From: Aplysia californica
Taxonomy: Eukaryota
Reading direction: 5' to 3'
NCBI RefSeq assembly: GCF_000002075.1
Contig: NW_004797650.1
Coordinates: 298,249 to 362,248, forward strand
DNA: 64,000 nt
Shown here: positions 269 to 61,900 of the stretch, piece by piece
How the letters are laid out: the number at the start of each line of letters is the position of its first letter
Numbering within the stretch: position 1 is the first letter of the stretch
Translations under genes and position numbers: made by a program
The notes under the pieces: generated by a model
Databases searched by the model: none
What the model saw: the letters and a program-made list of their open reading frames with translations, nothing else
Told to the model about the DNA's origin: nothing

Positions 269-3200
269 GTACAGGAAGATATTTAGTGCGTTCATCATTC
301 TGTATTTCTGTTTTTCCTGCCCGTATTTTTCCTTGTTTGCCTTTCATGTGGAGNNNNNNNNNNNNNNNNNNNNNNNNNNNNNNNNNNNNNNNNNNNNNNN
401 NNNNNNNNNNNNNNNNNNNNNNNNNNNNNNNNNNNNNNNNNNNNNNNNNNNNNNNNNNNNNNNNNNNNNNNNNNNNNNNNNNNNNNNNNNNNNNNNNNNG
501 TTGTTCAGAACTTTTTGTATCCATTCAGTTTTACTATTGTTCTTATGTCTGCTCCCACTAATATGTGGTGGCCATCTTGTCATGATCACTCAAGTTGGAC
601 CACTATTTAACATGAGCATATATGCATATGTGTGTGTTTCTGTGTGTTTATTTAGAATCAGAAGTAGACACAGACACTTGTAGTCTGGGTTTCATCTTTT
701 TAATTTTTTTTTTGTTGTTTCATGAAATCTTTATAATGACATAAATGTTCTTAATTCTTTTGCATCTCTTTCATTCAATGTAAGCAAAAAATCTTATTCA
801 TATTTTCCTGACCTGGCCAACAACTCAGTTTATGGGTAATGTTTGGGTTTGATTTGCCCTTTTGTCAAGTTTAAATGAACATTCTGTTTCTCTGTCTCTA
901 TTTTGGATGTATTTTTTGCATTGAGTACACAACTGTTGTTTTCTTGTAGGAGCAAGCTGAATCCAGTGACAGTTGACCCTGACAGACCAGAATTTGTCAA
1001 GCCATCTTGGAACCATTCTTTGAAGGTATTTTTGCCCATTATTCTTAAAGGGGACAAGGGGTTGGAAAAAGGGGAGTACACTTGTTTTTCTTTCTTCAAT
1101 GAAAGGCGGATAGCTTTCTCACCTTTTGAATTGTCATGTTAAGCAGTGCTTTGCTGGCCTGTGTACATATCTTTGTGCTCTACTGAAGATTCATTCTGGA
1201 AATAAAGAACATGGTCAAAAAGAGGCTGACTGTTGAAAAAAATATCTATCATTTTACGCTTTCTTTTTCTTTTTTTTTTTTCTTTTTTTCTTTTTTTTTT
1301 TTACTACATGCTGCTTATAAATACTCAGGTGCTGAAAATATTGGGGCAGCTATTATTTTCCTGTTAATGTGAAATTTATTGCTAAAGAATATGGGATACA
1401 GGAAAAGTAAATGTACTTGAATAAATTCTCCAAAGATTTTTAGTGCAGAATTACATCCTGAGAAAAAACAAAAGTGCTGTCCATTTAAGAACCTTGACCA
1501 TCCCAGGTGACTTTTCTTTTTCTTCCATCACCCCAACCCCCTTGCCCCCATAGTTTTTCAACACAGATTATCATTTCTTGTAATTTATTTTTACGTTACC
1601 TAAATATTTTTCAACGGAAATGACAGACACAGACTTCATGGTGAACTTTTCCAACTTCTTTTCTGAACTTTGACGTTTAAAAGAACTGTTCTTACTTTGT
1701 TTCTAAAAGTTGCTTTTTGTTTCCCCCAGCTCATGGCTGACACCAACTTCCTGAAGAACTTGGTGGAGTTTGACAAAGACAAAATCAATGATGAGATGTG
1801 TGAGTTTGTGGAGCCGTACCTGGCAGCGGAGGACTACACCCTGGAGATTGCCAAGAACGTCTGCGGTGACGTGGCTGGTCTGCTGTCCTGGACAAAGTCT
1901 ATGTACACTTTCTACTTCATCAACAAAGAGGTTTTGCCTCTCAAGGTAAACAATTTTTCCTTTCAACAAAGACTGTTTGCACCTTAAGTAACCGATTCTT
2001 TCCATTTGTATGCACTCGTTATATTTCGCTGACAAAGAGGTTTTGCCGCAGAAGGTAACAAATATATATATTGAAATAAAGGAATTCCACTTTATCTTTC
2101 ACCTTGGAAAATGTATTTTACAAAGGCGTATGTAAATACTCAAATACGCTATTACATAAATGCTTAAATAATACACAGTATCGCAAACATAGACAATCCA
2201 ATCACTATTGTTGGTTGTCTTTGCAAAATGTTCTGGGTTTTTTTTTGGGGGGGTTGTAAGTGTTTTACAGCGCTCGCAACTGCATTGTCATATGAGTGTG
2301 CGGAACACACCAAACATTTTCAGTTGGTAGGAAATTTTGAATTTCGCCCAGGTGGCGCCTGAAGCCTACTCTTATTGATTTTGGACCTCCAAAGGATCTT
2401 ATATGTGCGCAACTTGCTCACGGAATGTCCAAGACTTTTCGCCCTTGTCTGAGAAGGCTAGGTGTAGATCTTACCTACCATAAAACCATGGGTGTGGCTC
2501 AAAGATAGCAGTAAGAAGGAGCCAAAGAGTAGCAGTAGAAAGGCTACAGAAAGAGTCAGGAGCCCAGGGGAGGGTGCAAAGGAGGTTAGTGAGGGAGTGG
2601 GGGCAGAAAGTGGAGATGAAAGCAGACGACAGATCATTGTTAGAAACATTGTTAGAGAGCAGAAAAGGATGTGAAAGAACATTTTTAGAAAATAAAATTT
2701 TCCGTCGCTGTCCGGATTTGAACCTGGGACCTATTGAACGAGAGGCGAACACTTTAACCTCTAGGCCACAAGAGCCCCCTTCTGTTTTTTAATTTGGGTT
2801 ATCGGTTATTGTGTCTTGCTCAAGGACACACTTCAGTGGCCGCCCATCAGAGGCACACTCTTGACATTATTGTGAGGCTAAGCTCAGTAACCACTTAGCT
2901 GCTAGAGCCCACTAATGCATGCATTCTATGTTTTAAAGAGTTACATCTGACCATGTACCTGTTGACTACAAAGTCAGTCTTGGGTTGGAGGAAGAAGTTG
3001 ATCATTTTCTGGTTGTTATGCTGCTGCGACCTGCAATAGAGTTACTTCACTCGAGATGATTAAGGTTGTCACTGTGCTGTGTGAAGTTATACCTCTGAAT
3101 GCTTTTGTAAACAGTTTCTGTAAGAATAAATAAAAGTGAGTGGTCTTTTATTCTTTTAATGGCTTTTCACAGAGGAACTTTTTACTTCAGCGTTGGTGGC

Positions 3201-6200
3201 CTAGTGGTTAGGCTCTCGGACTCGCAACCGTAAGGTCGAGGGTTCGAATCCCGTCAGGGGCCCGACGTTGTGTCCTTGGGAAAGGCACTTTGCACAAATT
3301 TTCCTCACTTCAAACAGGTTGAAATGGGCACCCGGCTATAGACAGTGAACGATCTTGTCAGTTTGATAGTGTTTGAGCGCGTGAAATCCGCTGCTTGCAC
3401 TGTATGCTTCCGCGGAAGCCGAGAATGTTTCAGAGTGTTCTCAGAGGGTCTGCTGGGGTAATAATAGTTGTAAAGCGCATAGAGCATGCTCTTGAGCATG
3501 GATATGCGCTATATAAATGCAATTATTATTATTATTATTTATTTTTCTTCTCAGGCCAACTTGGCTGTGCAGGAGGGCAGGCTGAAGATTGCCATGGGTG
3601 ATCTAGAGACGGCTCAGGGTCAGTTGGATGCTAAGGAGGCAGAGCTGAGGGCTGTACAGGCTGAGTATGACAAGGCCATGGCAGAGAAGCAAGCTCTGAT
3701 GGATGATGCGGAGACTTGCAGGCGCAAAATGTCTGCGGCTTCGGCTCTCATCAATGGCCTGGGTAGTGAGAAAGAAAGATGGACAGAACAGAGCAAGGAG
3801 TTCAAGGCTCAGATTGGAAGGTACACTCTGCTTTTGTAATGACGACGACACAAGTTGGATTCTTTAGAAGGTGGTCTGTTTCAGTCATGCCTGTCTGGGG
3901 CCAGCCCAAGCTCAGTGGGATTTAATGTCTCAGAAAACAGAAGGGGATACTTGACAAAGTCTTCCTGAACTCATGTCTTCTACATGCCATAGCGAAAAGT
4001 GTAACCCTCACATCACAGATGTGGGTGGTTGACAGGTGCTCTGGTGTGGTTTGCTCCTTCTTTCCTATAAAAAATCTATCGTCCCTATCTCCCCTCCTTC
4101 TTTTTAATGTTTGTTACTCTCTTGTAACACCTCTAATCTTCGGCACTTATATGACCTTATTGTGTTGCAAATGCCGTAAAACTCTTACAAAAACATCACA
4201 TCACAGACACTGGTCCTCATTGAGCAGCCTACACTTTATTGAAAAAGATTTTATTGCTTTTTTAAATCTCAAAAGTATTTTTAAAATGTTTTAATTTTTG
4301 TCTATCATCAGCACTCTTATACATTGTTATTCCTTTTCTCACCTATATATTTCTTGTGTATTCTTTTGTAAATTTTGTTCAGAGAAGAATGATTCAATGT
4401 TCTTATGTCCACAGACTGGTGGGAGACATCTTGATCTGCACGGCCTTCTTGTCCTACTCCGGACCATTCAACCAGGACTTCCGTGCCCTGCTGAACAGAA
4501 ACTGGATGAAAGAGCTGAAGAACCGGAAGATTCCGTACTCAGCGAACCTGAATGTGGTGGAGCTGCTTGTCGACCCAACTCAGGTGTGTATATTTTTACT
4601 CACTTTGCAAAGTTTTTTGCTTTTCCGGCTTCATCAAGCCTGATCTTTTCATCAAGATCTTTGTTGTTCACTTCTAATTTTTTTCAGCATTCTCCTTTCG
4701 ATGACCAAATCTTTTCTATCTGTCCTGACTTGAAAGTAGGGTTTACCTTGTCACATGTATGAGAGCGAACTTTTGAATCATCAGATTCTGATGTTGAGAT
4801 CCTTGTTAATTGAGTAGTAAAGGACTTCTTCATTGGGTTGTTGTGTGTTGAGACGTTTGTTTTCATTTTAAAAAATGTCTTGTTACTTTGCCTGAAGTAA
4901 GATGTCCACTGCACTGTCTACCTATGCTTTTTTTATCTATCAGTTTGTTATACCCCTGCTTGATTTGGCTGGTTATGACACAAATGTACGATATGTTTAG
5001 TTAAAAAGTGTCATAATTTATTATGCCGTTATTACTCAAGAATTGCTTGCATTACATTTTTTATAAGTTACTCTTATTTCCCGAGGCTAATGAAAGTATA
5101 CCATTCCTCAAACTTAACTTTTGTTAATTGTCAGTTGTTGCTCCCCCAGTTCTGTATACTGGCTTATGTACTGTTGGTGAAAGAATAACCCTTATTTTGC
5201 ACGTTTCAAGAACCAGCGCCATGTTTTTTCAGATTGCAGAATGGAACTTGGAGGGTCTACCAAATGATGAACTGTCTACCCAGAACGGCATCATCGTGAC
5301 TCAAGCCTCACGCTATCCCCTGCTGATTGACCCACAGGGCCAGGGCAAGAGCTGGATTAAGAAGAAAGAAGAGAAGAGTGAGCTCCAGGTAGGTCAAATG
5401 CAGTGAGACACATATCAATGTCGGGCTATTCACTTAACATTTCCATATTTAGAAAAAAATGTTCTGAAAAGGAATGAAAAAAGAGACCTCCTTATTTCTT
5501 CTTTTTGAAAATGTATTTGAAATTGTCATGTAACTCTTAGATTTCTGACTTTTTTCAGCTCTAAATGACAGTTGTTGTGGTAGTCTGCTTTTCTTTTACT
5601 CAGATGTACCTACAATTCAAACTTCATTGCTTTTTTTCTAAAGGTGACATCGCTGAACCACAAGTACTTCCGACAGCATTTGGAGGACTCCATGTCCCTT
5701 GGCCGGCCTCTCATGCTGGAAGACATTGGTGAGGAGCTTGACCCTGCCCTGGACAATGTTTTGGAGAAAAATTTCATCAAGGTCAGTGACTTGTTCGAAC
5801 AAAAGAGAAGGGTCTAGCAGTTAAAGTTATGTTTCAGACTTTTAATGATGTGGATAATATACTTTGATAATCTTCTTTCTTAATGAAATAACAAGCTAAG
5901 CATTGAGTGACCCTGAGATATCTAGTACAGTATTGGTCATTGATCCTTCCTTGGCTCTCACTGCTATTAATATTTCCTTTCTCACTTTGACCTAGTTTCC
6001 ATATGTCATTGTTATTTATCATAAAACACAGAGTGGTACAAAACAGAAGCAACTGTCTATTAGGTGAAATTGTGCAAATTCCTTAAGAAAAATGTTAGGC
6101 AGCGTGGTGGAATCAGGCTCCTGTCAAAATAATCAAATTTAAAGAAACTTGCATTTTTTATTTTTGGCTCAACACCTTTCATACCCATTAAAGAACTCAT

Positions 6201-8543: not shown

Positions 8544-8580
<37 letters not shown>

Positions 8581-11500: not shown

Positions 11501-14500
11501 TGCACATCATTTTGACCCAGCCTAGAAGGGTTTATTCTATTTTGGAAGTGATTGTACATTTTGAATTTGTATGAATTCCGTTTTCTTCAAATTATCACTT
11601 CCTAAATTCAGAATTTGTGTGGACCTCTTATGTTATATTATCATGTATTTTCTTCCTTTAGATTTCCATCAAGTTCACCAATGAGCCCCCGCAGGGAGTC
11701 AAGGCGGGTCTAAAGAGGACGTACGCTGGTGTCACACAGGACTTCCTGGACATCTCCAACATGCCCCAGTGGAAACCAATGCTCTATGGAGTGGCCTTCT
11801 TGCACACTGTTGTTCAGGAGAGGAGAAAGTTTGGTCCTTTGGGCTGGAACATTCCTTATGAGTTCAACACATCTGACTTCAATGCTAGTATTCAGTTTGT
11901 GCAAAACCATCTGGATGACATGGACCCAAAGAAGGTTAGTATTGCAATGTGTTCAGTCTGAAGTTGGTTTTGTTCCATCTCAGCAGAGGATAGTGTTTGT
12001 GCTGTATTGATCTACATTAGTAATTTTCTATCTTATTTCAACCAGCACCCTTGTATCCGTCACAACCTAGGTGGTCCCCGCCAGGTCTTGGGAGAAAAAT
12101 CTTTAGAAGCTGCAGGAAGCAGAATCATTTATGAGCAAAAAAGGAGTGTGAAAGCTTTAATCATATTACAAACCAACAGCTGTTTCAGGATATAATTTTT
12201 AAAAGTTTGTCAATTTGTACTGTCTTCCAGACTACTCTGTTCACAGAAAATAGCTAAGACAGCTTCTTCCAACATGACTGACCGTCTCCGGACAATCGCC
12301 TTGTACTTCAAAGCATCAAGGGAAATGACTATTTCATTCATAGAAATGACAATAGAATTAAGATATTTGCCTCTCAGAAATAATCCGTATGTTTTCATTC
12401 ATTTTTTTAAAAGTTCAAGAACTGAGTTGCTGTTGGAACAGCCAAGCAACTGAACCGAGGTTTGATTTTCCTTGAGACTCACAAGTGTGCCGATTTATCA
12501 ATATTACTCTCTATTGTGCACTTTCGTATCTTCCTCCAGGGAGTGACGTGGGTCACAGTGCACTACATGTTTGGTGAGATCCAATATGGTGGCCGCGTCA
12601 CTGATGACTATGACAAGCGTCTGCTCAACACCTTCTGTTCAGTCTGGTTCGGAGAGAAGATGTTCGAGCCCAACTTCGTCTTCTACAAGGGCTACAACAT
12701 TCCCAAGTGTACAAAGATCAATGAGTACCATGAGTACATCAACGACCTGCCCTCTACCGACGCCCCTGAAGTGTTTGGACTTAATGCTAATGCAGATATC
12801 ACGTAAGGATTGGGTTTTGTCCTTTTTACAAATTGTGGGATGTATGAATACATTAACCCCCTTGTCGACCTGTTTTGATTTTTAGAAACAGTGGAACATT
12901 CTCCTAATCAATTAAAATCTTGAAGAAATTGTTTTGCCGTTATCTTTCTTTTCCTTATCTTCTCCTTCTTCCTCCTTCCTCACTAGCATTACATCAACAC
13001 TCATTGTAGAAGCTTTGATTCATTTTCTGTTAGAGCCAATAACTACCACATATATAAGATAAGATAAGATACATCTTTATTGTACACATATATGAACACA
13101 TACTCTCATTCCTCATTATTCTTTTTCTGTTGTGTTATCAGTATCCGATACTTCTTTTTAGATAAAAGGTCACCCTCTCTCTCAGATTCTCTGTACAATG
13201 TTAGTCTGTGCTAATTTGTAGCTTTCATCAGATAGGTGCATATCCTAAACAGTAATATTAATAACCTTTATATTTTTCTTCTTTGACATTCACATAACAG
13301 TTAAAACCAATACATTGCTGTGAGCTTTTGTTCTTGTCATGTTAACATACATTTTTTCCGTCGTTGTTCCCAGCAGAATTTTGGGTTTTATGAAGGCCAT
13401 TGGCCTTTATGGCAAATTGTAAAGTGAAACGATATTGTTAAAAAATTTATTATTTTTTTTATCGTTATTTATAAGAGTTGTTTTAAATCGCAAATATATT
13501 TACACTGAATTTTAGTATTTTAGCATTTTAAAGTCTAATTGTCGACAAACCGTGCAGTGAACTGTTGCGAATGCTACCAACTTGTGTTTCGCGCACTCAT
13601 ATGACCTTATGCAGTTGTGAGCGCCGTAAAACCCTGTACTACTACTACTAGGGCACCTTTATTTGAAGAGTCAGTATTTCATCTCATTGTTCTATGAAAG
13701 TTACAAAGAAAGAACTCAGCTCAAACCAAAACTTTGAAGTAATGTTCTTTGGACACAATAGTGTTTCTTTGTATACCCTGGACATATTAGAAAGAAGACA
13801 GGAATGGTAAGATGATTTTTGTTTTTAGATTTTGAATTGATGGAGGTCTTTTGGTTTCCCCTTGACTGTTTCCGTCATAATAACTTTTTCTATGACAGTG
13901 CTTTATTTAGTTTTCTGTGGAGGATATACATTTTGACCAATAGCTGTCACCGTCGTTTTATGCAAGAAAAATTGTGAAATTATGCAAACTGAGCCCAAAA
14001 ATGTGAAATTATGCGATTCTGTTAATTTTAACAAAGAATGATAAAGGAAAATAATCAGAATTTATGCCAAAATTGATAAAATTTTTCCAAATTATGCGGG
14101 GTGCATAAAACTACGGGGACAGCAATAGTTGTTTGTCTTCATGTCATAGGACGCACCAATAGCTCAGTGGGTATTGTGCTGTTATGGAATGTATGTAGGG
14201 GCCTATAACTGTAGTTTGAATCGTCAAAAGGGCATTCTTAAAATAAGGTTGTTTCTAGAGTTTTTTAAGTAGACTCATCACCTAAGCCTACTTGTTTCAG
14301 TCTTGTCAGAGACAGAGATTATAATTATTCCGAGGTCCTAACTTTTGAAGGATATAAGAGTGTTTAAAGTTAAAGGGTAAGATTCATAAAATTACAATTA
14401 TTTTTCATCATCTCACCTACTCTTTCTGCCTCCTTGACTTGAGCATTAATTTTGTACATTCATTCAAGATGCACCGGTTATTTCTCTCAATGAGATGATA

Positions 14501-17500: not shown

Positions 17501-19134
17501 TTTTTTCGTCCTTTTGTTTGTGCTTTCTTTTACCAATATCTGACTGTGGGCGGTTGGCGGGTGCTCTGGTGTGGTTTGCTCCTTTCCTATCAAACGTCTA
17601 TCGTCATTTTCTCCCCTTCTTCTTTTTATGTTTGTTACTGTCTTGTAACACCCCTAATCTTCTGGCGCTCATATGACCTTATGCAGTTGCGAGCGCCGTA
17701 AAACCTCTACTAAAACTAAAAATATCTGACTCTCAGTCAATTAGGAAAGAGGAAGTGTGCACCACCTTATGCTTGCATTGCCTCTGTTGCTCTGCAGAAA
17801 GTGACCCGTAACCACAAAGGCTGGGCCCTGGACACTGTGGTCTTGTACAACGAAGTGACCAAATTTGAGAACATTGACGCCGTGCCTCAAGAGCCACAGG
17901 AGGGTGTCTATGTCCACGGCCTCTTCCTAGATGGCGCTGGCTGGGACAAACGGAACAGCAAACTAATTGAATCAAAACCCAAGGTGAGGCTGTTTTCCCT
18001 TTGCTGATAATATTTGCTGTTCCCTATTTTATACAGCAGAAGATATTCAGAGACGTCTCTCACAAGTTCCCAGGAACTATTCGCAGACGCAGTCCCGCAC
18101 ACAGATGCACTGCTTTGGGGGTCAAACTGCGTATTGTTTGCTGCAGATCACACATATAGTCACAAATACTGTCGCAAATGAAGTATTAAAAAAAAATTTT
18201 GAAACCTAGCAGTAAAATATCAAATTATGGGTTAAAACAGGAGGTGTGCCCCCCCTAGAACACCCCCCAATTTTTTAACTTGGTCTAGAGGCACAAAGCA
18301 TTTTGATTGGTCTATCTCCATCGGAGATGTCTCCGGATAGATACTGCTGTTTTATACATTCTCAAACTGCAACTGCAAGCCTTCTTTTCATTGCTTAATA
18401 TTTCCCCTTAGTGTTCCTACTGTTGCTAGCTGTGGTAAACCCCTAGTGTCTTTAAAACCATCACTATTTTACCTGCTTAACTCTATGGTTTTACAAATCA
18501 TTGACAATGGTCAAGCTTTGTTCTCTAACAAAATGCATCGTTTGGTAATGAATTCAGAAGTTACACGTCTGTGAGTGGTTTGTGGGTGCTCTGGTGTGGT
18601 TTGCTCCTTCTTTCCTATCAAACAACTATCGTCTTATATCTCCTCCTTCATTTTTTTTGTTTGTTACTCTCTTGTAACACCTCTTATCTTCGGCAATTGT
18701 AGTGCAAGTCATCATCATCATCATTGCCTTTCTCACCCTGCATCAGGGTATAGGCCACGGACAAACACCTTCCACCTTTCTCTATCCTGGGCTAGCCTCT
18801 TGATGTTATTCCATGTCTTCCCACTTTTCTGTACATAGTGCAAGTGCAACTGCCGTAAAACGCTTACTTAAAAAAAAAAAAGAAGCTTCGTTTCATTTTT
18901 TCAAAAATGTCTATCTCCCAGGTCCTGTTTGAGTCCATGCCAGTGATTCACATCACTGCAATAAACAGCACCAGCAATGCGGACAACCCCCGCTTGTACA
19001 AATGCCCAATCTACAAAAAGCCTCGTCGTACTGACCTCACCTACATCGCGGAGGTCATCCTTCGCACTGGTCAGAACGTTGTCGCTGATCATTGGGTCCT
19101 CCGAGGTGTTGCGCTGCTCTGTGATGTCAAATAA
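21..19134 (+). CDS. DNAH5: Axonemal outer-arm dynein heavy chain (DNAH5/DNAH8 type), 3' part: stalk, AAA5, AAA6 and C-terminal domain; 21 exons, 5' part upstream of window
   Basis: Phase-consistent AG/GT exons: 21-268, 950-1025, 1730-1945, 3555-3820, 4415-4583, 5233-5388, 5644-5781, 6758-6958, 7748-7852, 8208-8461, 8955-9145, 9473-9750, 10219-10390, 10840-11066, 11662-11934, 12540-12802, 14534-14750, 15812-15964, 16758-16910, 17798-17983, 18922-19134. Motifs [55 protein letters not shown] and C-terminus [15 protein letters not shown]...[18 protein letters not shown]5 versus DNAH8 orthology cannot be settled without a tree. Confidence 0.93.
950..1025 (+). CDS. DNAH5: Dynein heavy chain exon
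   Basis: [25 protein letters not shown]. Confidence 0.88.
1730..1945 (+). CDS. DNAH5: Dynein heavy chain exon
   Basis: [17 protein letters not shown]...[10 protein letters not shown]. Confidence 0.9.
2250..2779 (-). mobile_element. tRNA-derived SINE with Deu/Nin-like central domain and I/Nimb-like 3' tail (diverged copy)
   Basis: Colinear with the copies at 32168, 52990 and 55880. Confidence 0.85.
3190..3541 (+). mobile_element. tRNA-derived CORE-like SINE with L2-like tail
   Basis: A/B boxes (TGGCCTAGTGG, GGTTCGAATCC), core TGTGTCCTTGGGAAAGGCACTT, tail TGTAAAGCGCATAGAG...TAAATGC(ATT)n; second copy at 60945. Confidence 0.88.
3555..3820 (+). CDS. DNAH5: Dynein heavy chain exon
   Basis: [10 protein letters not shown]...[21 protein letters not shown]. 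Confidence 0.9.
4020..4195 (+). mobile_element. ~175-bp non-tRNA retroposon (GTGGGTGGTTGG family)
   Basis: 12-bp TSD tcacatcacaga; stem-loop tail. Confidence 0.85.
4415..4583 (+). CDS. DNAH5: Dynein heavy chain exon
   Basis: [23 protein letters not shown]. Confidence 0.9.
5233..5388 (+). CDS. DNAH5: Dynein heavy chain exon (AAA5)
   Basis: [19 protein letters not shown]...[17 protein letters not shown]. Confidence 0.92.
5644..5781 (+). CDS. DNAH5: Dynein heavy chain exon (not in ORF track)
   Basis: [46 protein letters not shown]. Confidence 0.9.
6098..6494. mobile_element. Harbinger-like MITE
   Basis: ~30-bp TIR GGCAGCGTGGTGGAATCAGGCTC(C/T)TGTCAA; tta/tca flanks. Confidence 0.8.
6758..6958 (+). 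CDS. DNAH5: Dynein heavy chain exon
   Basis: [13 protein letters not shown]...[16 protein letters not shown]. Confidence 0.92.
7748..7852 (+). CDS. DNAH5: Dynein heavy chain exon (not in ORF track)
   Basis: [35 protein letters not shown]. Confidence 0.9.
8208..8461 (+). CDS. DNAH5: Dynein heavy chain exon
   Basis: [10 protein letters not shown]...[18 protein letters not shown]. Confidence 0.92.
8690..8830 (+). mobile_element. Partial CORE-like SINE
   Basis: gttgtgtccttgagtaaggcatttt...ctcacttcacccaggtgggaatggatacctggctatag matches the 3190/60945 family. Confidence 0.75.
8955..9145 (+). CDS. DNAH5: Dynein heavy chain exon
   Basis: [17 protein letters not shown]...RGLYESDK. Confidence 0.9.
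9473..9750 (+). CDS. DNAH5: Dynein heavy chain exon
   Basis: [13 protein letters not shown]...[17 protein letters not shown]. Confidence 0.9.
10219..10390 (+). CDS. DNAH5: Dynein heavy chain exon
   Basis: [13 protein letters not shown]...[12 protein letters not shown]. Confidence 0.9.
10840..11066 (+). CDS. DNAH5: Dynein heavy chain exon (AAA6)
   Basis: [18 protein letters not shown]...[11 protein letters not shown]. Confidence 0.92.
11662..11934 (+). CDS. DNAH5: Dynein heavy chain exon
   Basis: [21 protein letters not shown]...[17 protein letters not shown]. Confidence 0.92.
12540..12802 (+). CDS. DNAH5: Dynein heavy chain exon
   Basis: [29 protein letters not shown]. Confidence 0.92.
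13351..13650 (+). mobile_element. 3' end of I-group (Nimb/I-like) LINE
   Basis: Encodes [22 protein letters not shown], resembling an I-group ORF2 C-terminus, then 3' UTR, stem-loop and (CTA)n tail. Confidence 0.7.
13944..14122. mobile_element. 179-bp MITE
   Basis: TIR CTGTC(A/C)CCGT.GTTTTATGCA; caatag on both sides; inverted copy at 16404-16582. Confidence 0.8.
14534..14750 (+). CDS. DNAH5: Dynein heavy chain exon
   Basis: [31 protein letters not shown]. Confidence 0.92.
15183..15421. mobile_element. piggyBac-like MITE
   Basis: TTAA(A)-CCCTGTCTGTACG ... CGTATGGATAGGG-TTAA. Confidence 0.5.
15560..15795. repeat. 60-bp minisatellite (about 3.5 units)
   Basis: Unit atctcatcttgtcatattcatgtatatatgcacatattattaggagtaaagatctttctc. 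Confidence 0.9.
15812..15964 (+). CDS. DNAH5: Dynein heavy chain exon
   Basis: ELDRMQIVI...[21 protein letters not shown]. Confidence 0.92.
16404..16582. mobile_element. 179-bp MITE (same family as 13944); related pieces at 16090-16331
   Basis: Reverse complement of 13944-14122. Confidence 0.8.
16758..16910 (+). CDS. DNAH5: Dynein heavy chain exon (not in ORF track)
   Basis: [15 protein letters not shown]...[18 protein letters not shown]. Confidence 0.92.
17013..17182 (-). mobile_element. RTE LINE 3' fragment
   Basis: Reverse translation [16 protein letters not shown]...[11 protein letters not shown]; (GAA)n tail; TSD ttttctgaac. Confidence 0.8.
17546..17720 (+). mobile_element. ~175-bp non-tRNA retroposon
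   Basis: TSD aatatctgact (17535-17545 and 17721-17731). Confidence 0.88.
17798..17983 (+). CDS. DNAH5: Dynein heavy chain exon
   Basis: [12 protein letters not shown]...[16 protein letters not shown]. Confidence 0.9.
18570..18880 (+). mobile_element. ~175-bp retroposon split by an RTE fragment
   Basis: Family body 18570-18709, tail 18846-18880. Confidence 0.75.
18710..18835 (-). mobile_element. RTE LINE 3' fragment
   Basis: Resembles the 3' end of the 46929 RTE; (TGA)n tail; TSD tagtgcaagt. Confidence 0.8.
18922..19134 (+). CDS. DNAH5: Dynein heavy chain last coding exon
   Basis: [11 protein letters not shown]...[14 protein letters not shown]. Confidence 0.93.
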
Positions 19135-21007: not shown

Positions 21008-21499
21008 GAATATTAAAAACTTTATGAATGAAGTCTTTGTTGTTGTTTGAATATGCTGCAAATTGGAGAGGGAGAGAGAGAGACAGAGTGATAGAGAGAC
21101 AGAGAGTGATAGAGAGACAGAGAGTGATAGAGAGACAGGGAGATTAGAGTAGGGGTAAGCTCACTAAATTAGCGTCTGCGAGGCACGAACGGACGGCTGG
21201 TAATACTCGCAAATGAATGGATGGGTTACGAATGGTCCACTTGTTAAGATTTGTTTGCTGCACTTCAGGCGCAGAGACAACTGTTCGTTCAGCGAGCAGA
21301 CGGACCGGGCGACTCCATGCATCTGAGTGGGTGGACGGCAAACGGAGTAACGCTTTGTATTGCATAATACTACTACCCCCCCCCCCCCCACAAACTACAG
21401 TACATTGCCATCTAAGTGGGACATGTAGCATATTGCAGCTGGGTGCCATTCATGGCGACCCGGGTATTCCCTCCTCCTCCTCCACAAAAGGTCTTTCAG

Positions 21500-22060
21500 T
21501 CAGTAGTATAGGGTTTTACGGCGCTCACAACTGCGTAAGGTCATATGAGCACGCGAAACACAAGTTGGTCTTGTTCACAACAGTTCGCTGTACGGCTGGC
21601 TCAGGTCAGTAGTTAAATCTTAAAATGTTTAAAAATCAGTGTAAATATACATATATTTTCAATCCAAAACAATTTTTTCTAGTTGACATAAAAATTTTAA
21701 ATAGTACAGTTTTACTTTACAATTTGCCATAAAGGCCAATGGCCTCCATAAAATTCAAAATTTTGCTGGGACCAACGACGGAAAAAATCAAAAGGTCTTT
21801 GGAAAGTTTTAGTTTTAGTAAGAGTTTTACGGCACTTGCAACAAAATAAGGTCATAATATAAGTGCCGAAGAATAGAGGTGTTACAAGAGAGTAACAAAC
21901 AAAAAAAAGAAGGAGGAGAGATCAGGACAATAGATGTTTGATAGGAAAGAAGGAGCAAACCACACCAGAGCACCCGCCAACCACCCACGGTCTTTGGAAA
22001 TTTGTTAAACTTTGGCCATCTCAATAAATTAGAACGCACACAGTGTGACCCACACACATA
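21500..22060 (-). mobile_element. 3' end of the same I-group LINE, interrupted by the 21806-21988 element
   Basis: [23 protein letters not shown] plus UTR and stem-loop. Confidence 0.7.
21806..21988 (-). mobile_element. ~175-bp non-tRNA retroposon inserted in a LINE fragment
   Basis: TSD ggtctttggaaa (21794-21805 and 21989-22000). Confidence 0.88.
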
Positions 22061-43670: not shown

Positions 43671-43711
<41 letters not shown>

Positions 43712-43722
43712 TATTATTATTT
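43478..43722. repeat. (ATT/ATG)n microsatellite next to an assembly gap
   Basis: Trinucleotide run. Confidence 0.9.
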
Positions 43723-52900: not shown

Positions 52901-55900
52901 TGGTGGAACTTCAAGTGTGGTCTGTTGGTTTTCAATTTTTTCCATTTTATTTTTGGTTTAATCTGTATCTCGGGAAATATTTGTTGGGTTTTTTTTTGTT
53001 TTTGTAAAGTGTTTTACGGCGCTCGCAACTGCATAAGGTCATATGAGCGCGCGGGACACACCTAATATTTTCAGTTGGTAGGAAATTTTGAATTTTGCCC
53101 GGGTGGCGGCCGAAGCCTACTCTTATCGATTTTAGATCACCAAGGGATCTTTAACATGCGCAACTTGCACACGGGCCCTCCGAGATTTTTCGCCCTTGTC
53201 CGAGAAGGCTAGGTGTAGATCTTTCCTACCAGAATATCAGGGGTGTGGCAGAAAGACAGCAGTAAGGAGGAGCCAAGGAGTAACAGTAGAAAGGCTGCAG
53301 AAAGAGTCAGGAGCCCAGAGGAGGGGGCAAAGGAGGTGAGGGGGTGGGGGGCAGAAAGTGGAAATGAAAGCAGACAACAGAACATTGCTAGAGAGCAGGA
53401 AAGGAGGTGAAAGGAGACAATTTTAGAGAAGAAAATTTTTTGGTCGCTACCCGGATTCGAACCCGGGACCTTTTGAATGAGAGGCCAACACCTTAACCTC
53501 TAGGCCACGAGAGCCCCCTCAGGAAATTTGGCCAATGGCGCTGACTCTGTAAGCTTAACACTTTGCCGTCACATCTCGCCGATCGGCGATATTTACCATC
53601 CAGTTTCTTTGGATTTTCCCTAAACTGCCTTTGCCTTTGATGGAAAGGGTTTTAACTTTATGAGCCTTGTGATGGCATAGTGTTAAAGGCTACAGGGCGA
53701 CTGAGGTAAAAGTATTTACCATAACCTTTTTATTTTTACATTTGTCAATTATTGTTGTGATACATAGTGTAGCAATGCCAATCGCCCGCTGCGCCTTGTG
53801 CCGGAAATCGGCCTCCGCGCGAGGGGTATTTTTTGGGCCGCTCGGAATCAGAAGTGACTCTCTTCTAAGTTTAGTTACGGGAAAACTCCTGGACGAAAAT
53901 CAATGAAACTCGGCAACCAACCAGAGGAAAGGTTAAACTAACGACATGCCAGCGTACAATCCCGAACGATTACTAGAACCGGAGATATTGCCGTGTTTGT
54001 GAGAATTTCCTCTGCGGTTCGAAAACTAAGCGGAGCAGCGGGTTGATCGCCGACCACACAAGCGCCCCACATGTCTTCTTTATTGCTGTAAAATTTCAGA
54101 TCTCTGCGTTTAGTAGATTTTCCGTACCAACTTAAAATTACCACCCACCCATTGATAAAACACTAGATCTAGAAACTTAATCGCGCATTCAAAACGCGAG
54201 GTGCCGGCATGCAAGAGGCGCGTGATCGCTAGGCGGCATGTGATTGGCTGCCTATAACCAAATGGGTCACCGATGACTACATCGCGGGTTTTCCCGATAG
54301 CGCTTTACTGAGTTTTAGAAGCGGTGATCGCGTCGCGGTAAAAACGATGTCACGCAATTCAACAAATTTCACGCAAATATCAGTGTTTAAGATCCAAAGT
54401 AATAAAGACAACGAAAAAGTGATAGCAGAACTAGATTTGGCACTAAAAATCACATGGAGATGCCAAGTTTCATTCATATGCTCCAATTCATTACTGACTT
54501 ATGAACAGTTTTTCCTCAAAATACATCAAAACATGTCCCACATTTTGGCGATTTTTTCCTATATGAAGGTCCTCCAACATTTTGCAAACAAAAATCCCAA
54601 TAACTTTTTTATTTATCAATGGATTTTTAAAATTTAAAAACCACAGTTCTTAGAATTTACTCTAGTTTCATTTAAGCCCATTTTTAAGCAATTCGGATGA
54701 AAATTTAATTTTTCATTGTCATTGCTACATAGTGACTTTTTTGGGTGATGGAAATACTCCTCTACCCTCTCAGATGTTGTTAATTAATTCATTTTCCTGT
54801 TTGTCTACTCTTTCCAGGTGTGGACCCCAAGTCTGTTCTGTGTGCATTCTTCAAGCAGGGCCAGTGTACTAAGGGAGACAAGTGCAAATTTTCCCACGAC
54901 CTTACCATTGAGAGGAAGGGCGAGAAGAGAAATATCTATGAAGATAAAAAAAGTAAGAGCTCAAGTAAATGGATGAAATGTCGATGAGCATTTTTCAAGT
55001 AGAGTCGCCTGGGAAGATGAAAAATGTATTAGTGAAAATACATCCGTTAGAAGTCTGTGAAGATTTCAGAAAGTTAGGTCAAGTATGAACCTTGTGTCGT
55101 GTAAAAAGAAATGTAAGCTTCTTGTTTTGAGAGTTGGGTTAAATTTATTTTGGAAAAACGACAGATTTGCACATACGCTTTTTTTTTGCCAATAACTTTT
55201 TTATTTGTACAAATTTCTTATGAAAGTAAGAATAAAAGTTTTAGAATATTTATGAATATGTGAAGCAAAAAGTATTTTGTGAAGTTGTTGTAGTAGTGGT
55301 GTTGGGAATGACTGAATAAAAACTGCTGGTTCATTAGATCTCTAGATCTAGACCAGAGTCTAGACGCTTCGTAGGTCTACGTTATATTCCACAAAGTGTT
55401 AGCTCTAGCATCAAAACCCTCGAAATCATCTTCCGATTCAAGGAAAACACGCGGAACATCTTCATCTGAATCTGATGCGACACTATTTTCATGTTTGTCG
55501 CGGGTCGCAATAGCGAAATTTCCAACTTCACTGTCACTCGACTTCAAAGTGAAACAAAAAACTCCTCGCGCCTCGATCGAAATTTCGTGACAAGAAAAAT
55601 GGCGGGCGAAATCAATTCTGTGTAGCCTACTAGCCAGCAGTATAAAAATTAGTACTTCTTTCTTTTCGTATATCGCGTTATACTATGCCAATGTCTATCT
55701 CGACCAGGCCGGTCGCGATGAGCACTTTGCGGAAGTGGTCGCAATCAGCACTCTAAGTGGGTTAAAAAATACTTTCAGGTGTAGGTTCTTCTTTGAATGC
55801 TTTGGAGGCACTTGGAAACAAAAATGTCCTAGCTTCACCTCTGTTGTCCATGTGGCTCTTGTGTGAGTCAATAAAACTTTTGTTTGTTTTTTTTGGTTAG

Positions 55901-58900
55901 TGTTTTACGGCGCTTGCAACTGCTTATGGTCGTATGAGCACGCAGGACGCACTAAACAATTTGAGTCGGTAGAAAATTTTTGAATTTTTGCATGGGTGGC
56001 GGCCAAAGCCTACTCTTAGTCTTATCAATTTTAGACCGCCAAGGGATCTTTAACGTGCGCAACTTGCACACGAAACCTCTGAAATTTATCACCCTTGTCC
56101 GAGAAGGCTAGGTTCTTTCCTACCAGAAGATCAGGGGTGTGGCTGAAAGACGGCAGTAAGAAGGGGTCAAGGAGTAGCATTAGAAAAGCTGCAGAAAGAC
56201 TCGCGATCCCAGAGGGGGAAAAGGAGGTGAGGGGGTGGGGGGTAGAAAGTGGAGATGGAAGCAGAAAACAGAACATTGCTAGAGGGCAGGAAAGGAGGAT
56301 AAAGGAGACAATTTTAGAACAGAAAATTTTTCCGTCACTACCCAGATTCGAACCCAGGACCTTTGAATGAGAGGCGGACACCTTAATCTCAAGGCCACGA
56401 GAGCCCCCAATACAAGTTGTGTATTTCCTGTTTTGTTTACAGTGTTTTGAAACACTTGCGCATGGGATGTGAAATTGTATATATATGTGTTTTTGTTTTT
56501 TCTGATGCAGGTACAATGGAAGACTGGGATGAAGCCACTTTGGAAGATGTCATCAATAAAAAGCATGGGGAAAGTGAGAAAACCAAACCTAAAACAGGAA
56601 TTGTGAGTGCTTTGTTTGGTGTGTGGGGTAGGAAAACTAGGACAAGTTTTGATGGTGGACAATCTTTGGAGGCTTGTCTGGAGCAACTTCTTTCCATGCT
56701 GTCTTTGTAAATCGTTGTGCCATATTTCCTTTGACTATTTTCAGTATAATCTTCGAGAAAGAAGCTTCAGCTTGGTGGGTGGTTGGCGGGTGCTCTGGTG
56801 TGGTTTGCTCCTTCTTTCCTATCAAGCATCTATCGACCTTATCTCCCCTCCTTCTTTTTTATGTTTGTTACTCTCTTGTAACACCTCTAATCTTCTGGCG
56901 CTCATATGACCTTATGCAGTTGCGAGCGCCGTAAAATCTCTACTAAAACTAAACTAAACTAAAGCTTCAGCTTTGCGAATCAAATGATTATACCGTATTT
57001 TCAGATTGCAGAGGCTTGGCGTTATCATTTGTTTCGTTTGTGATCTTTTTGAAATAGAAATTCTCATTATGAGTTCAGCTTAATGGCTAGGGCTCTTTTG
57101 AAAAGGTTGTTGTTCTTACTCCCTATATGATTAATTGTGGTGTTACTGTTGGGTTGGCAGGTGCTCTGGTGTGGTTTGCTTCTTCTTTCCTATCAAACAT
57201 CTATTGTCCTTATCTCTCCTCCTTCTTTTTTGGGTTTGTTACTGTCTTGTAACACCTCTAATCTTCGGCACTTATATGACCTTATTCAACTTATTGTGTT
57301 GCAGGTTCCTACTAAAAAAATGTTGAGTTGTCTTGTTACAGGTAAAAAAAATTTTTTGGCAAAAAAGAAATACTTGAATGTGAGATTTCTGTTTTTGTAA
57401 TTAATGTAATCGCTGATTGGAAGGGCATGTTTGGTCCTCACATGTAGTGCTCGAAGCAAGCGCTGATTATGACTTTTTTTTTCTCTCTCAGATTTGCAAA
57501 TTTTTCCTTGATGCGGTGGAGAACAGCAAATACGGCTGGTTCTGGGAGTGTCCAAACGGGCCTAAATGTATTTACAGGCACGCACTTCCTCCTGGTGAGT
57601 TGGCTCTTGCAGACACTGTCACTCTCTCAGTCTCTTGTCTTAACAATTTTGTGACAACCTATGTCTACTTGTGTATCTATACATGAGATGTTTGGGTTAC
57701 AAAACAACCATATCACACAAGCTGCTGGCTTGATCACTCCCACTGAGGTCATAGTTGATTAAGAGAAAATGGAATTTTTTTAGTTGTGAAGTAACTTTAA
57801 AAATTATTAGTATGAAATTGTCTGTTGCCTCTATTGTTTACCAACAATTGACTTTGTTAAAGTTTAGGTTCATTGTGACCAGAAAGTCATAAATTGATAT
57901 TTCTGATCTGATTTGTGATTTCCACATTCATAAGTGTTTGAGGAAATTTACATTATGACAAAAAAGTTATAAATTGATTGCAGCTATCATTAGGGTTAAA
58001 GAAATGTTTGTGGACATTTTGGAAAGGATATGTTTTTATGCTTGGCCTTGCTTCAAAGAGTAAAATGCTGGTGTGAGGGCAGATGTTTCAATTTGTGGCA
58101 ACAGGGAGGGATGAGACGAAGATCGTACCAGAAATAACCATGAGAATTTATGAATAATAGAAATTGAAACTTTTTCCCCCTTTTAAAAAAAAATTCAGGG
58201 TTTGTTCTGAAGAAGGATCAGAAGAAGGAAGACAAGGAAGAAAAGATTTCTATAGAAGACTTGGTGGAGACAGAGGTACGTAACTAGAGAAGTGTTTCTT
58301 CAGATTTGTTTGTTTGTTTTTTAAAAAGTTTTCTGGAGAACTGCACAACCTGTTTGCACGCTGTGTTGTTGTTGTTGTTGTTATCAATCCAGCAACAGCT
58401 GGGCTCTCACCCTTCTGTCCAATGCCATGTAGTGATAAGTGCAGGTCTGCTGCAGTTGCTGTAATTGCATGCTGTGTATCATCATGGATTTGTGCAAAAA
58501 AAAATTTTCCTTTGGGCCATATTAAGCGATTGTTTTTATTCTTTACATTTGTTATCTTTAATTAATTTTTTAAAATTTTTATTATTTTCTTGAAGCGATT
58601 GTTCTTATTCTTTACAAATGTTATTTTTATTACTTATAAAGGCTGCATGTTGAAATGGGTTTATTAAACTTGTGAAACCCTCTACTATAAAAAAAACCCC
58701 CCAAAAACATTGTAAATCTTTGTCAGCACCAAGTAATTCCTGTAGGGACATGACATCATGATGACCTCTGTGACTTGTTGGAGCACAGAAGTAACGTATT
58801 GTCAGTGCCTGTCATGACAGCTGGCTCTATTATCATTTTATGTGAATGTCTGCTATTCTTTTTGATTTTGGGGAGGGGGGTGGGGGTTGTTAACAGTATA

Positions 58901-61900
58901 GTGGGACCTATTGTTCTTTTATTCTTGGAGTGAATGCCATGGACACCCTTTTGAAAAACTCCTATGTGAGGAAGTGTGGTCAAATCAGGCACTCGTCAAA
59001 ATAAGGAAATCAGAGAAACTGGCATTTTCCCACCAGTTTGGAAATTTTTGTTGAATTTTTGTTTTTTGGCTCGTCCCATTTATGTCCTTATAAATGCAGA
59101 TTTCCAGGTGAATTTTACGGAAAAACATTGATCAAAGGCTCAAAATATGTCTTTTTCACTTTTCAAGGTTTCTTTAGCTATTGGAGTTATTAAACTTCGG
59201 CTGTCATTTTCTCGCTAATTTCACCTCTGAAACCAGGTGACTTCACCTCCTTCAATCACATTTATCTTGACTTTTCTTCAAGATAATTTGGATATATATT
59301 TCCCTGGAAGCAAGGCTCGTGAATCAGCTTTCAGACTATACCTTTACTTGAGATGCCCAAAAATTGACGGGCGCCTGATTCCATCGCGTCGTGAGGCATA
59401 TGTTTCTGTGTATTACGTGTGTTGTCTGATTGTATACTGTTTAAAATAATGTAAGACGTTTTACTTCAGCCATGTGAAGCATCTTAAAATTAGTTTCTAC
59501 CTTCTAAATACTTTTCAATTCTGATATGTTGTAGAGAAATGGATGTCTACAGCTGTGTTGTCATTATGCTTTGCCTTAACTGATTATTATCATTTTCTGT
59601 GTCTTTGTCTTTCAGAGAGCTGCTTTGGGATTTAATGTAACCAAGGTGACACTGGAAACCTTTCTTAAGTGGAAAGAGAGAAAGGTTTGCATTTGTTATT
59701 CTTTGCTTGTTTTTAATCCTTTTTTCTCCCCTTTTGTCTCTCAGCAAACATGGGAGACTACCAGTCTAGACTTGAAGATTCAGTGGTGTCTACTTGTCAG
59801 CGCCCCAAATATGAGCCACATCTGACTAACACCAACCTAAACTTGTGTAACGGAATTTTGTTATATAGATAACCTCTTTTTATAGTATCTTTTGCCTCTA
59901 ATGGCAACCTTTCTTGCCATATTTTGATCATTCAAAATTTCTGGGAACACCACGACTTGCCCCTTTTCTCTTGTTTATCTCCTCACAACTCCTACTTGGG
60001 CCAAAAATACACTGCACTGAGTACCAGGTGCTCTGGTATGGTTTGCTCCTTCTTTCCTATCAAACATCTATCGTCCTTATCTCCCCTTCTTCTTTTTTAT
60101 ATTTGTTACTCTCTTGTAATACCTCTATTCTTCTGGCGCTCATATGACCTTATGCAGTTGCGAGTGCCGTAAAACCTCTACTAAAACTAAAAAACTGAGT
60201 ACCAGAACTCTGTTTACTCCCCATCACCAAGAGCTGTCTGTAAGGCAGACACCACTGTAATTTCAAAAGTATTTCAATCTCTGTTTAGAAGACTTATCCA
60301 GAATTGACAAGATTGTTTCAGAAATGTGTAAGGAAATATTGTGTTGTGGTGGGTAAATATTAAGGCATCATAGTGGAGCATGCAGTTATAATACTGTTCT
60401 GATGAAAAGATCTTCTAATTTTCTGAACATTTTCACTCTGTTGAAATCAGATCATGCAGTTAGAATAGTTACATGGTGATGATCTTTTCTCATCCTAGCT
60501 GCATTCTCAGATTGTGGGTGGTTGGCGGGTGCTCTGGTGTGGTTTGCTACTTCTTTCCTATGAAACATCTATCGTCCTTATCTCCCCTTCTTCTTTTTTA
60601 TGTTTGTTACTCTCTTGTAACACCTGTAATCTTCTGGCGCTCATATGCAGTTGGGAGCGCCGTAAAACCTCAACTAAAACTAAACTAAAACTAATTCTCA
60701 GATTTCCATGATTTTTCTACTGTTACATATAGCTGGAGATGGACAATTGCATGTGATGTTCACAAGAATGACATTTTTACATAAATTTTTACTCTTTTTT
60801 TAATGTCACCACAGAAAAGAGAAAAGTTGGAGCAGCACTATGAAGAACAGGAAAAGAAGAAAGCTGACTACAAGGCTGGACGCACTGTTGGGGTATGTAG
60901 TCACTCTATGTGCCGGTATGCTGTTTACTTGGTGGGAAAATGTTCGGTGGCCTAGTGGTTAGTCTCTCGGACTCGCAACCGTAAGGTTGTGGGTTCGAAT
61001 CCCGTCAGGGGCCCGACGTTGTGTCCTTGGGAAAGACACTTTACACAAATTTCCCTCACTTCACCCAGGTGGGAATGGGTACCCGGCTATAGATAGCGAA
61101 AGATCTTGTCAGTTTGTTAGTGTTTGAGCGCTTAATCAGCTGCTTGCACTGTATGCTTCCCGGGAAGCTGAGAATGTTTCGGAGTGTTCTGTGGTCTGCT
61201 GGGGTAATAATAGTTGTAAAGCGCATAGAGCCTGCAGTTGAGCGGGGATATGCGCTATACAAATGCTATTTATTATTATTATTCTTCACTCTTTGCTTGT
61301 CACAGCGTACTGATAGCTAGGTCTTGGTCTATTTCCAGTTACATCTTATTTGATAAAGTTTTTCTATTGTTTGTTTGTATCCTGATGTGAGACCTGTTCA
61401 TTTTCTTACTGTTCTCTTTGTATTTCTATTGTTAAATGGTTGGCAGGTGCTCAAGAAGAGTCTGCTCATTTTTGTTGGTAATACAAATCGTGACCCCAGT
61501 GCTTTTTTTGTCATATTTCCATTTTTAAGAACAGTGAAAACAGTACATCACAAAGAGTGAGTTTAAGAAGATGTCACATTTTTACTGTTAAAATAAATGA
61601 AGATACGACAAGGAAGCACTGAGGTCACGAAATAGTGCAGTCTGCTTTTAGGTGCTGTATCAACTCATTGCAAATTACAACTTGCCAACAGAAAGATTGT
61701 CCTGTTGTCTCATATATTTTGTACCTGAATGTGGAAGTTATTGTCATTTATGTGTTTATTGGCATGTGTAGGAATATTAAAGTATCATGCAAATTTCACC
61801 TGCATTCTACTTGTAGATTGGACCTCTTGCTGGATGCCAGAATTTCAAAGTTTGTTTCCTTTCATAACAGATCAGTGGTCGTCAAATGTTTGAGTTCAAT

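What the first reader, a model, noticed from the sequence alone, without database searches (positions are those of the whole stretch)
2250..60693. One 3' stem-loop shared by a LINE and three passenger element types
Seen: the motif GCGCTC-ATATGACCTTATG-CAGTTGC-GAGCGC-CGTAAAAC (outer stem GCGCTC/GAGCGC, inner CATA/TATG around loop TGACCT) ends about 16 insertions. These are (a) LINE tails encoding ...[11 protein letters not shown] (13351, 21500) plus a UTR-only piece (28047); (b) four tRNA/Deu-Nin SINEs (2250, 32168, 52990, 55880); (c) eight ~175-bp non-tRNA elements; and (d) a longer hairpin variant at 34370. Groups a, b and c differ completely upstream of the motif, and several have 11-12 bp TSDs. 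Established: stringent-type LINE reverse transcriptases recognise a 3' stem-loop that SINEs borrow. Inference: one I/Nimb-like LINE mobilises a whole set of parasites, and the ~40-nt motif is the minimal recognition signal.
Basis: partly seen in the sequence, partly recalled or inferred. Interest (0 to 1): 0.7.

Follow-up and report, generated by a model that had tools for sequence, protein, structure and literature searches.

The report
Short retroelements sharing a LINE hairpin
Three families of short mobile DNA end in the same predicted RNA hairpin as a full-length LINE retrotransposon that likely copies them, a kind of hitch-hiking already described in molluscs, although here about half of the sampled ends of the youngest LINE group are the hairpin inserted on its own.

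Summary
A covariance model finds 15 motif copies in the window (3 LINE tails, 4 tRNA/Deu-type SINEs, 7 c, 1 d), and one exact 36-mer has 8,768 genomic hits. I recovered the full-length LINE (about 6 kb, TSD-flanked, APE-RT-RNase H). The same tail is printed for bivalve I/Nimb LINEs and V-SINEs, so the system is a known kind; this scan also noted it elsewhere in this genome.

Corrections: (1) the better-supported inner stem is UGAC/GUYG, not CATA/TATG, while the outer stem covaries; (2) c and d share about 77 nt; (3) a second LINE family (58% ORF2 identity) carries a homologous hairpin with 0 of 30 passengers, and subfamily c2 matches no LINE seen, so 'one LINE' fits b, c1 and d only.

Less ordinary: 38 of 70 sampled ends of the youngest LINE subfamily are hairpin-only insertions of about 57 bp (26 with exact TSDs). 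They end where the c and d bodies join the motif, and some land at the base of a c stem, a possible route to tail swaps. Recognition by ORF2p is inferred, not tested.

The parts
2229..2781 (-). b: tRNA-headed Deu/Nin-type SINE, older copy; motif 2262-2298 with a loop deletion
   Evidence: no TSD found
4021..4195 (+). c2: non-tRNA element with the compensated outer stem; motif 4142-4182
   Evidence: TSD found
13349..13650 (+). a: 5'-truncated LINE-A 3' end (last ORF2 codons, 3' UTR, 8-nt-loop hairpin 13592-13632, ACT repeats)
   Evidence: no TSD found
17546..17722 (+). c1: non-tRNA element; motif 17664-17704
   Evidence: TSD found
18572..18864 (+). c copy with a damaged motif, split by an unrelated insert
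   Evidence: E 0.59
21502..21788 (-). a: 5'-truncated LINE-A 3' end of a diverged subfamily; motif 21513-21553
   Evidence: 12-bp TSD that overlaps the TSD of the neighbouring c2
21807..21988 (-). c2 element; motif 21824-21867
   Evidence: TSD found
27003..27049 (+). 3'-half remnant of the motif with a b-type terminal repeat
   Evidence: (E 0.003); no TSD found
28043..28250 (+). a: UTR-only LINE-A piece with the 7-nt loop of the youngest subfamily; motif 28189-28228
   Evidence: TSD found
32166..32700 (+). b: tRNA/Deu-Nin SINE; motif 32633-32673
   Evidence: TSD found
34226..34633 (+). d: 400-bp non-tRNA family with a C-run/G-run head like the LINE 5' end, a CT-rich segment shared with c and an internal hairpin; motif 34568-34608; 5' side abuts an N run
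52985..53519 (-). b: tRNA/Deu-Nin SINE; motif 53011-53051
   Evidence: no TSD found
55874..56408 (-). b: older tRNA/Deu-Nin SINE; motif 55902-55942
   Evidence: no TSD found
56775..56962 (+). c1 element; motif 56897-56937
   Evidence: TSD found
57152..57318 (+). c2 element with a broken 3' arm
   Evidence: E 0.0008
60025..60196 (+). c1 element, slightly 5'-truncated; motif 60135-60175
   Evidence: TSD found
60514..60694 (+). c1 element with the inner stem-loop deleted; motif 60636-60668
   Evidence: TSD found

Best explanation
The motif is the 3' end of an RNase H-bearing, likely Nimb-clade LINE lineage (LINE-A), whose ORF2 protein likely binds this predicted two-stem hairpin and so copies a tRNA/Deu-type SINE (b) and two non-tRNA elements (c, d) that end in it. 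Shown: the full-length LINE, the shared 41-nt end, TSDs around whole passengers, family-specific terminal repeats, and two compensated outer pairs. Predicted: a 6-7 bp outer stem, an internal loop, a UGAC/GUYG inner stem and a 7-9 nt loop. Inferred from L2-clade assays: the stem is read generally, the loop specifically, and the terminal repeat primes TPRT. Inferred: reverse transcription often ends at or within the hairpin, giving hairpin-only insertions of about 57 bp; that stop point is likely also where passengers gained the tail, by template switch or by a hairpin-only insertion landing in a transcribed repeat. Successive LINE-A subfamilies, not one master, would have driven the waves: c2 oldest, then c1 and old b, then young b.
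For: Full-length LINE-A: 9 of 16 loci fetched downstream of a head match show head, tail and a TSD (about 5.9-6.1 kb, one 7.3 kb with a duplicated tail), and one has an open 1,226-aa ORF2 with APE, RT and RNase H. Among the first 90 of 8,768 exact hits of the 8-nt-loop motif: 42 b, 27 c, 11 d, 9 hairpin-only, 1 LINE. Whole-element TSDs exceed controls. Terminal repeats track LINE subfamilies: old LINE-A copies end like c2 and d, and young b ends like younger LINE-A. Structure: outer pairs G-C>A-U and C-G>U-A in c2, inner stem 100% paired with one G-U>G-C change in LINE-B. Published bivalve V-SINE1/3 tails keep the same two stems with different letters, read by eye. The same tail is aligned to an I/Nimb LINE in PMC11481361 suppl. 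file 4 panel C. Loop-specific recognition is shown for ZfL2-1/2-2 in PMC4176376 sect. 13. Hairpin-only copies: 38 of 70, 26 of 38 with an exact TSD of >=9 bp (control 24 of 1,406), inserts 51-61 bp.
Against: No binding or mobilisation data exist here, and the stringent model comes from L2-clade LINEs, not I/Nimb. Folding is weak on its own: z -0.4 to -2.7 for 6 copies. Covariation rests on 8 distinct rows and essentially one event (c2); 25 of 500 shuffles reach it. c2 (3,011 exact hits) matched no LINE in 30 sampled. The youngest LINE-A has a 7-nt loop that only 1 of 70 hits shares with a passenger, yet young b with the 8-nt loop is about as recent (median pairwise 2.1% vs 3.7%), so the loop cannot be an absolute key, or an 8-nt-loop LINE persisted. 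PolyA RNA shows patchy LINE cover and no discrete passenger transcript. No promoter was found for c.
Confidence: 0.8

Rival explanations
1. Several Nimb-type LINE families share the passengers: the hairpin fold is a general key, so LINE-B or an extinct third family mobilised c2, and perhaps the others too.
For: LINE-B (58% ORF2 identity) has the same fold. The c2 loop end and 3' arm resemble LINE-B more than LINE-A. No LINE carrying the c2 version was seen in 30 sampled. Multiple partners per SINE superfamily are reported in PMC11481361.
Against: 0 of 30 LINE-B motif hits are passengers. b, c1 and d match LINE-A letter for letter over the motif. The c2 terminal repeat equals that of old LINE-A copies.
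Confidence: 0.3
2. The hairpin plus tail is a self-propagating micro-element that inserted independently at the ends of unrelated repeats, so the shared end says nothing about a shared motor.
For: Hairpin-only insertions with TSDs are common, and some sit at the base of a c stem (L174; L435).
Against: Hairpin-only copies carry the loop and terminal repeat of each source family, their 5' ends are ragged (1-10 nt in LINE-A; 12-38 nt from the stem end in LINE-B), and full passengers have TSDs around the whole element.
Confidence: 0.07
3. Recognition is relaxed: only the A-rich terminal repeat matters, and the hairpin is kept for RNA stability or simply inherited.
For: The loop differs between the youngest LINE and its putative passengers. 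Folding energies are modest.
Against: The two-stem fold, the UGAC and the GUAAAAC end are kept between LINEs 58% identical and in published bivalve elements, while the terminal repeats vary freely.
Confidence: 0.08

Closest known systems
Mollusc SINEs with the shared I/Nimb tail: BivaV-SINE1, BivaV-SINE3, BivaMeta-SINE1, BivaMD-SINE1, HalSINE1, LitSINE1 (PMC4824008); partner named I/Nimb in PMC11481361
   Same: Same tail motif (ATGACC core, GTAAAAC end) on unrelated bodies; 35-61 bp LINE-SINE homology; one LINE matching several SINE superfamilies is reported there for a CR1-Zenon element.
   Different: Here LINE and passengers are seen in one genome with subfamily-level loop variants, and two passengers lack a tRNA head. 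I saw no hairpin structure or hairpin-only insertions for this tail in the passages read; the figures were not visible.
LP-SINEs (LINE-promoter SINEs; Lsa_2, Hdi/Hmi_LP, Oco/Oed_LP, Sgl_LP; PMC4758252 sect. 10)
   Same: Short TSD-flanked retroposons whose head comes from a Nimb 5' UTR, with a tail shared with tRNA SINEs; different LINE families share only the 5' extremity, as LINE-A and LINE-B do here (about 190 nt).
   Different: d matches the LINE head only in the C-run start and a 12-nt G-run motif, plus a weak CT-rich match; c has no LINE-like or tRNA-like head. The published consensus sequences could not be compared.
Nin-DC/Deu SINEs, including the Aca-Nin-DC-SINE named in PMC4758252
   Same: tRNA head with A and B boxes and a Deu/Nin-like central block.
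Stringent LINE/SINE pairs UnaL2/UnaSINE and ZfL2-1/2-2 (PMC4176376; PMC1636434 seen as listing only)
   Same: 3' stem-loop plus short terminal repeat shared by LINE and passenger; stems covary while loops differ between LINE families.
   Different: Those are L2-clade elements tested in cells; this is an RNase H-bearing I-group LINE with no assay.

Membership tests
I-group LINE (I/Nimb) | ORF2 with APE endonuclease, RT and C-terminal RNase H | tested here: met
   PF14529/PF03372, PF00078 and PF00075 above cut-off in L088
I-group LINE (I/Nimb) | ORF1 with CCHC zinc knuckles | tested here: inconclusive
   zf-CCHC E 0.016, below the curated cut-off; knuckle-like Cys/His pattern visible in LINE-B
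I-group LINE (I/Nimb) | Variable-length TSDs and a 3' short tandem repeat, no LTRs | tested here: met
   9 of 16 loci with head, tail and TSD; LINE-B L307 with a 12-bp TSD
Nimb clade specifically | RT groups with reference Nimb elements rather than I, Ingi or Vingi | not testable with these tools
   Homolog hits carry no clade names, so the tree has no named references; the Nimbus paper is not held
Nimb clade specifically | 3' tail like that of published I/Nimb elements | tested here: met
   S.constricta_0 I/Nimb tail in PMC11481361 suppl. file 4 shares the core and the end motif, compared by eye
tRNA-derived SINE (b) | [quoted passage not shown] | tested here: met
   A-box pattern in 13 of 18 and B-box pattern in 9 of 18 full-length copies; ARAGORN and Rfam call nothing
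Deu/Nin-DC SINE superfamily (b) | Central Deu/Nin domain | tested here: inconclusive
   Two short blocks match a BivaMD-SINE1 row by eye and occur in 12 of 18 and 11 of 18 copies; no full-domain alignment was possible
LP-SINE (d) | Head homologous to the first 70 nt of a Nimb 5' UTR | tested here: inconclusive
   Shared C-run start and 11 of 12 nt G-run motif by eye; best local match to the LINE-B 5' UTR is 34 nt, CT-rich, 0 of 100 shuffles as high; no significant match to LINE-A
LP-SINE (c) | Head homologous to a LINE 5' UTR | tested here: not met
   c vs LINE-A and LINE-B: 23-59 of 100 shuffles score as high; an unseen third LINE is not excluded
Classical SINE (c) | Head derived from a small RNA with an internal Pol III promoter | tested here: not met
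   No Rfam match at gathering score in the window and none on the element at E<=5 in L036; no clear A/B box pair by eye
Stringent-type LINE/SINE system | ORF2p needs the cognate stem-loop for mobilisation | not testable with these tools
   Needs a cell or in vitro assay
Stringent-type LINE/SINE system | Shared 3' stem-loop with compensatory changes | tested here: met
   Two double-sided changes in the outer stem, inner stem 100% paired; few independent events

The most novel reading that the evidence does not exclude
Nimb-type ORF2p releases a hairpin-sized unit: about half of its insertions are just the 57-bp hairpin plus tail, with a sharp 5' edge at the base of the stem. These micro-insertions are portable mobilisation tags. 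Dropped into a transcribed repeat they create or re-tail passengers at the DNA level, which would explain the promoterless c family and its two tails, while a one-base loop change lets the youngest LINE shed most of its parasites.
Probability: 0.22. Interest if true: 0.72.

Novelty: new member of a known kind. Interest (0 to 1): 0.38.

Why it matters
The core claim, one LINE tail on several SINE bodies, is textbook and is already in print for this mollusc tail. What this genome adds is a ready test set for an untested clade: two LINE families and at least four hairpin versions with natural stem compensations and loop changes, which make the recognition rules of I/Nimb ORF2p directly testable. 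The hairpin-only insertions mark where reverse transcription ends and offer a concrete route for SINE tail acquisition, usually attributed to template switching without observed intermediates. How the c family is transcribed remains unexplained.

Tried and rejected
(1) Inner stem CATA/TATG: 86.7% paired, 3 of 4 pairs depart only by mismatches, and a base is missing in the youngest LINE-A; rejected for UGAC/GUYG. One search used a misregistered structure string and is void. (2) A truncation hot spot only at the stem base: true for young LINE-A, where the search pattern needed the whole hairpin, but with a shorter pattern LINE-B ends spread through the loop and 5' arm (13 of 30 at 12-38 nt), so 'within or at the base of the hairpin' is the fair statement. 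(3) Full escape of the youngest LINE from its passengers: weakened, because young b is about as recent. (4) c derived from a LINE 5' UTR, or from b: not significant. (5) Rfam and ARAGORN: nothing at threshold. (6) HDV-like ribozyme at the LINE 5' end: considered by eye; the expected L3 and P1.1 letters were not seen and no model was run. (7) Expression: no RNA holder listed in the index. Three polyA raw-read runs of one study were laid: LINE cover is patchy, from near 0 to about 990x; c reads lie on both strands with mixed flanks and no common start. PolyA libraries cannot show short non-polyadenylated RNA. (8) A search with a distant ORF2 end returned 150 matches; the 29 of 30 loci whose tails I printed were all LINE-A. 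LINE-B was found through the shared head. (9) The ORF2 tree (40 unnamed homologs) only shows that LINE-A and LINE-B each have closer relatives than one another. (10) One search's automatic labels gave 5 passengers among 70; four of them (L401, L421, L435, L470) are hairpin-only inserts on inspection and.
Full report
Observation. The motif is real. Its 13-nt core has 10 window matches at one mismatch, against 0.12 expected. A covariance model built from 10 copies finds 15 window copies at E<0.001: 3 LINE tails, 4 SINEs, 7 c and 1 d. An eighth c copy has a damaged, interrupted motif, and a half motif lies at 27003. TSDs were found for 9 of 17 window elements. The window is G000:C380:298249-362248 in a 927-Mb genome. 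The elements lie among exons of a DFRP_C-domain gene (weak Pfam hit).

The LINE. Walking up from the window tails and searching with the 5' region gave full-length LINE-A. Of 16 loci fetched, 9 show head, tail and a TSD; most are 5.9-6.1 kb, and one has an open 1,226-aa ORF2 with APE, RT and RNase H domains; ORF1 has a sub-threshold zinc knuckle. This architecture is that of the I group (established knowledge). Nimb assignment rests on the tail, which matches an I/Nimb tail in PMC11481361 suppl. file 4 by eye; no named RT references were available. A second family, LINE-B, shares the first 190 nt or so, is 5.6 kb with a 12-bp TSD, has an ORF2 58% identical to LINE-A with one internal stop in the copy read, and ends in a homologous hairpin.

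The passengers. The 8-nt-loop 36-mer has 8,768 exact genomic hits and 0 for the reversed control. The first 90 of the 100 listed sort into 42 b, 27 c, 11 d, 9 hairpin-only and 1 LINE (BLAST sorting gave 38 b, 28 c, 9 d, 1 LINE and 14 unassigned; L127 is by its TSD a further hairpin-only copy that one search did not list as such). b is about 530 bp with A and B boxes and Deu/Nin-like blocks. c is about 175 bp with a fixed 5' end and no recognisable small-RNA or LINE head. d is about 400 bp, starts with a C-run and a G-run motif like the LINE head, and shares 77 nt with c (score 67, 0 of 200 shuffles). Full-length copies carry TSDs around the whole element: b 11 of 18, c 20 of 40, d 2 of 4, against 5 of 306, 12 of 1,560 and 0 of 12 cross-pairs. 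So the motif travels as part of each element. Subfamily c2 has its own version of the motif, with 3,011 exact hits; 26 of 30 sampled were c by BLAST, 3 more were c-like by eye, 1 was a c2 with a d inserted, and none was a LINE.

Structure. Between c1 and c2 the outer stem changes on both sides at two pairs. The inner pairing UGAC/GUYG is kept in all 8 distinct rows, with one G-U to G-C change in LINE-B, and RNAalifold picks it unprompted. Against: single-copy folding is weak, and 25 of 500 shuffles reach the observed covariation.

One LINE or several. b, c1 and d match 8-nt-loop LINE-A over the motif, and terminal repeats track LINE-A subfamilies. Median pairwise divergence orders the waves: c2 14.4%, c1 9.2%, old b 8.7%, 8-nt-loop LINE-A 6.6% (top-hit biased), 7-nt-loop LINE-A 3.7%, young b 2.1% (6-28 copies each). 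LINE-B has 211 exact motif hits and 0 passengers in 30. The 7-nt-loop version has 1,167 exact hits and 1 passenger in 70 (70 of the first 73 listed; three loci already held were skipped). This fits loop-specific recognition as shown for zebrafish L2 elements (PMC4176376), but young b with the 8-nt loop was still active, so the specificity is not absolute or an 8-nt-loop LINE persisted.

Hairpin-only insertions. Of the 70 hits of the 7-nt-loop version, 38 match the LINE for only 1-10 nt beyond the pattern (mode 3-5, the base of the outer stem), 7 run into assembly gaps, and 25 are longer. Of the 38, 26 have an exact TSD of 9 bp or more (control 24 of 1,406) and the inserts measure 51-61 bp. With a pattern covering only the last 24 nt of LINE-B (259 hits), 13 of 30 end 12-38 nt upstream, inside the loop or 5' arm; none ends at 0-11 nt; one at 46 nt is gap-bound; the rest reach 115 nt or more. 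Gaps near long copies and exact-match sampling may inflate these fractions. The c and d bodies join the motif at the same few bases, while b shares about a dozen more with the LINE. One LINE-B hairpin sits with a TSD at the base of a c2 stem (L174), one young LINE-A hairpin likewise (L435), and three other motif-ending elements were seen at that site, with a fourth a little further upstream (no expectation computed). I read these as abortive TPRT products that can re-tail a passenger; that step is inference.

Comparison with the literature. PMC4824008 (passages, rows of suppl. file 2; file 1 unavailable) reports one tail shared by V, Meta and MD SINEs and two gastropod SINEs. PMC11481361 (passages, sect. 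13, suppl. file 4) names I/Nimb as partner and shows one LINE matching four SINE superfamilies. PMC4758252 (part 2 of 7, sect. 10, passages; supplement search with 5 terms found nothing, file 1 unavailable) describes LP-SINEs with Nimb-derived heads and mentions an Aplysia Nin-DC SINE. PMC5786205 (passages) lists only RTE, Ingi, Vingi and R2 as sources of bipartite non-autonomous LINEs. PMC11203168 (passages) notes Nimbus elements in gastropods. PMC4176376 was read as abstract and sect. 13. Searches for hairpin-bounded short insertions and for LINE escape from SINEs (listings only; scan notes) showed nothing on point, which is weak evidence given the library's gaps and the unseen figures and files. 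I recall, from no call, that Repbase lists Nimb-clade elements from a sea hare; LINE-A and LINE-B may already be catalogued.

Verdict. Real and mostly ordinary: a new local member of the known Nimb-tail SINE/LINE system, with a corrected hairpin, a second LINE that carries no passengers in the sample, a promoterless passenger family and a marked excess of hairpin-only insertions. Interest 0.38.

Noticed in passing
window 53763-54734 and 62832-63803: Two 972-bp copies, 98.6% identical, with short terminal inverted repeats; they look like a young non-autonomous DNA transposon.
   Followed up: partly
window 21490-22000 (- strand): A c2 element and a LINE-A tail sit 5 nt apart with overlapping TSDs, so two insertions hit almost the same site.
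   Followed up: partly
window 13349 and 21788: Two LINE-A fragments about 77% alike are 5'-truncated within 2 nt of the same position, just before a T run.
   Followed up: no
L088, L307 and L276-L305, first 190 nt of the LINE: LINE-A and LINE-B share their 5' end; it shows a 9-bp stem, a possible pseudoknot with the G-run and a small hairpin with a double-sided change between the families, read by eye.
   Followed up: partly
c (window 56870-56890) and d (window 34430-34450): The segment shared by c and d holds a small hairpin with one apparent double-sided change, and in c it is followed by letters that resemble an older terminus.
   Followed up: partly
L175: A tandem array of at least five units of a variant of the hairpin-plus-tail.
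   Followed up: no
L036, L038, L049, L057, L060, L063, L064, L382, L399: Family members often sit inside one another, mostly in or near A-rich tails, which suggests priming by tail-target complementarity.
   Followed up: no
window 56513-56602, 59646-59690, 61874-61966: Exons of a host gene with a weak DFRP_C hit (E 0.0005); ZC3H15-like is a recalled label.
   Followed up: partly
window 3195-3539, 8712-8837, 60946-61286: Another repeat family with a tRNA-like B box and no motif.
   Followed up: no
L031:187-2600: A decayed LTR-retrotransposon-like gag/pol stretch upstream of a LINE-A copy, seen in the translations only.
   Followed up: no
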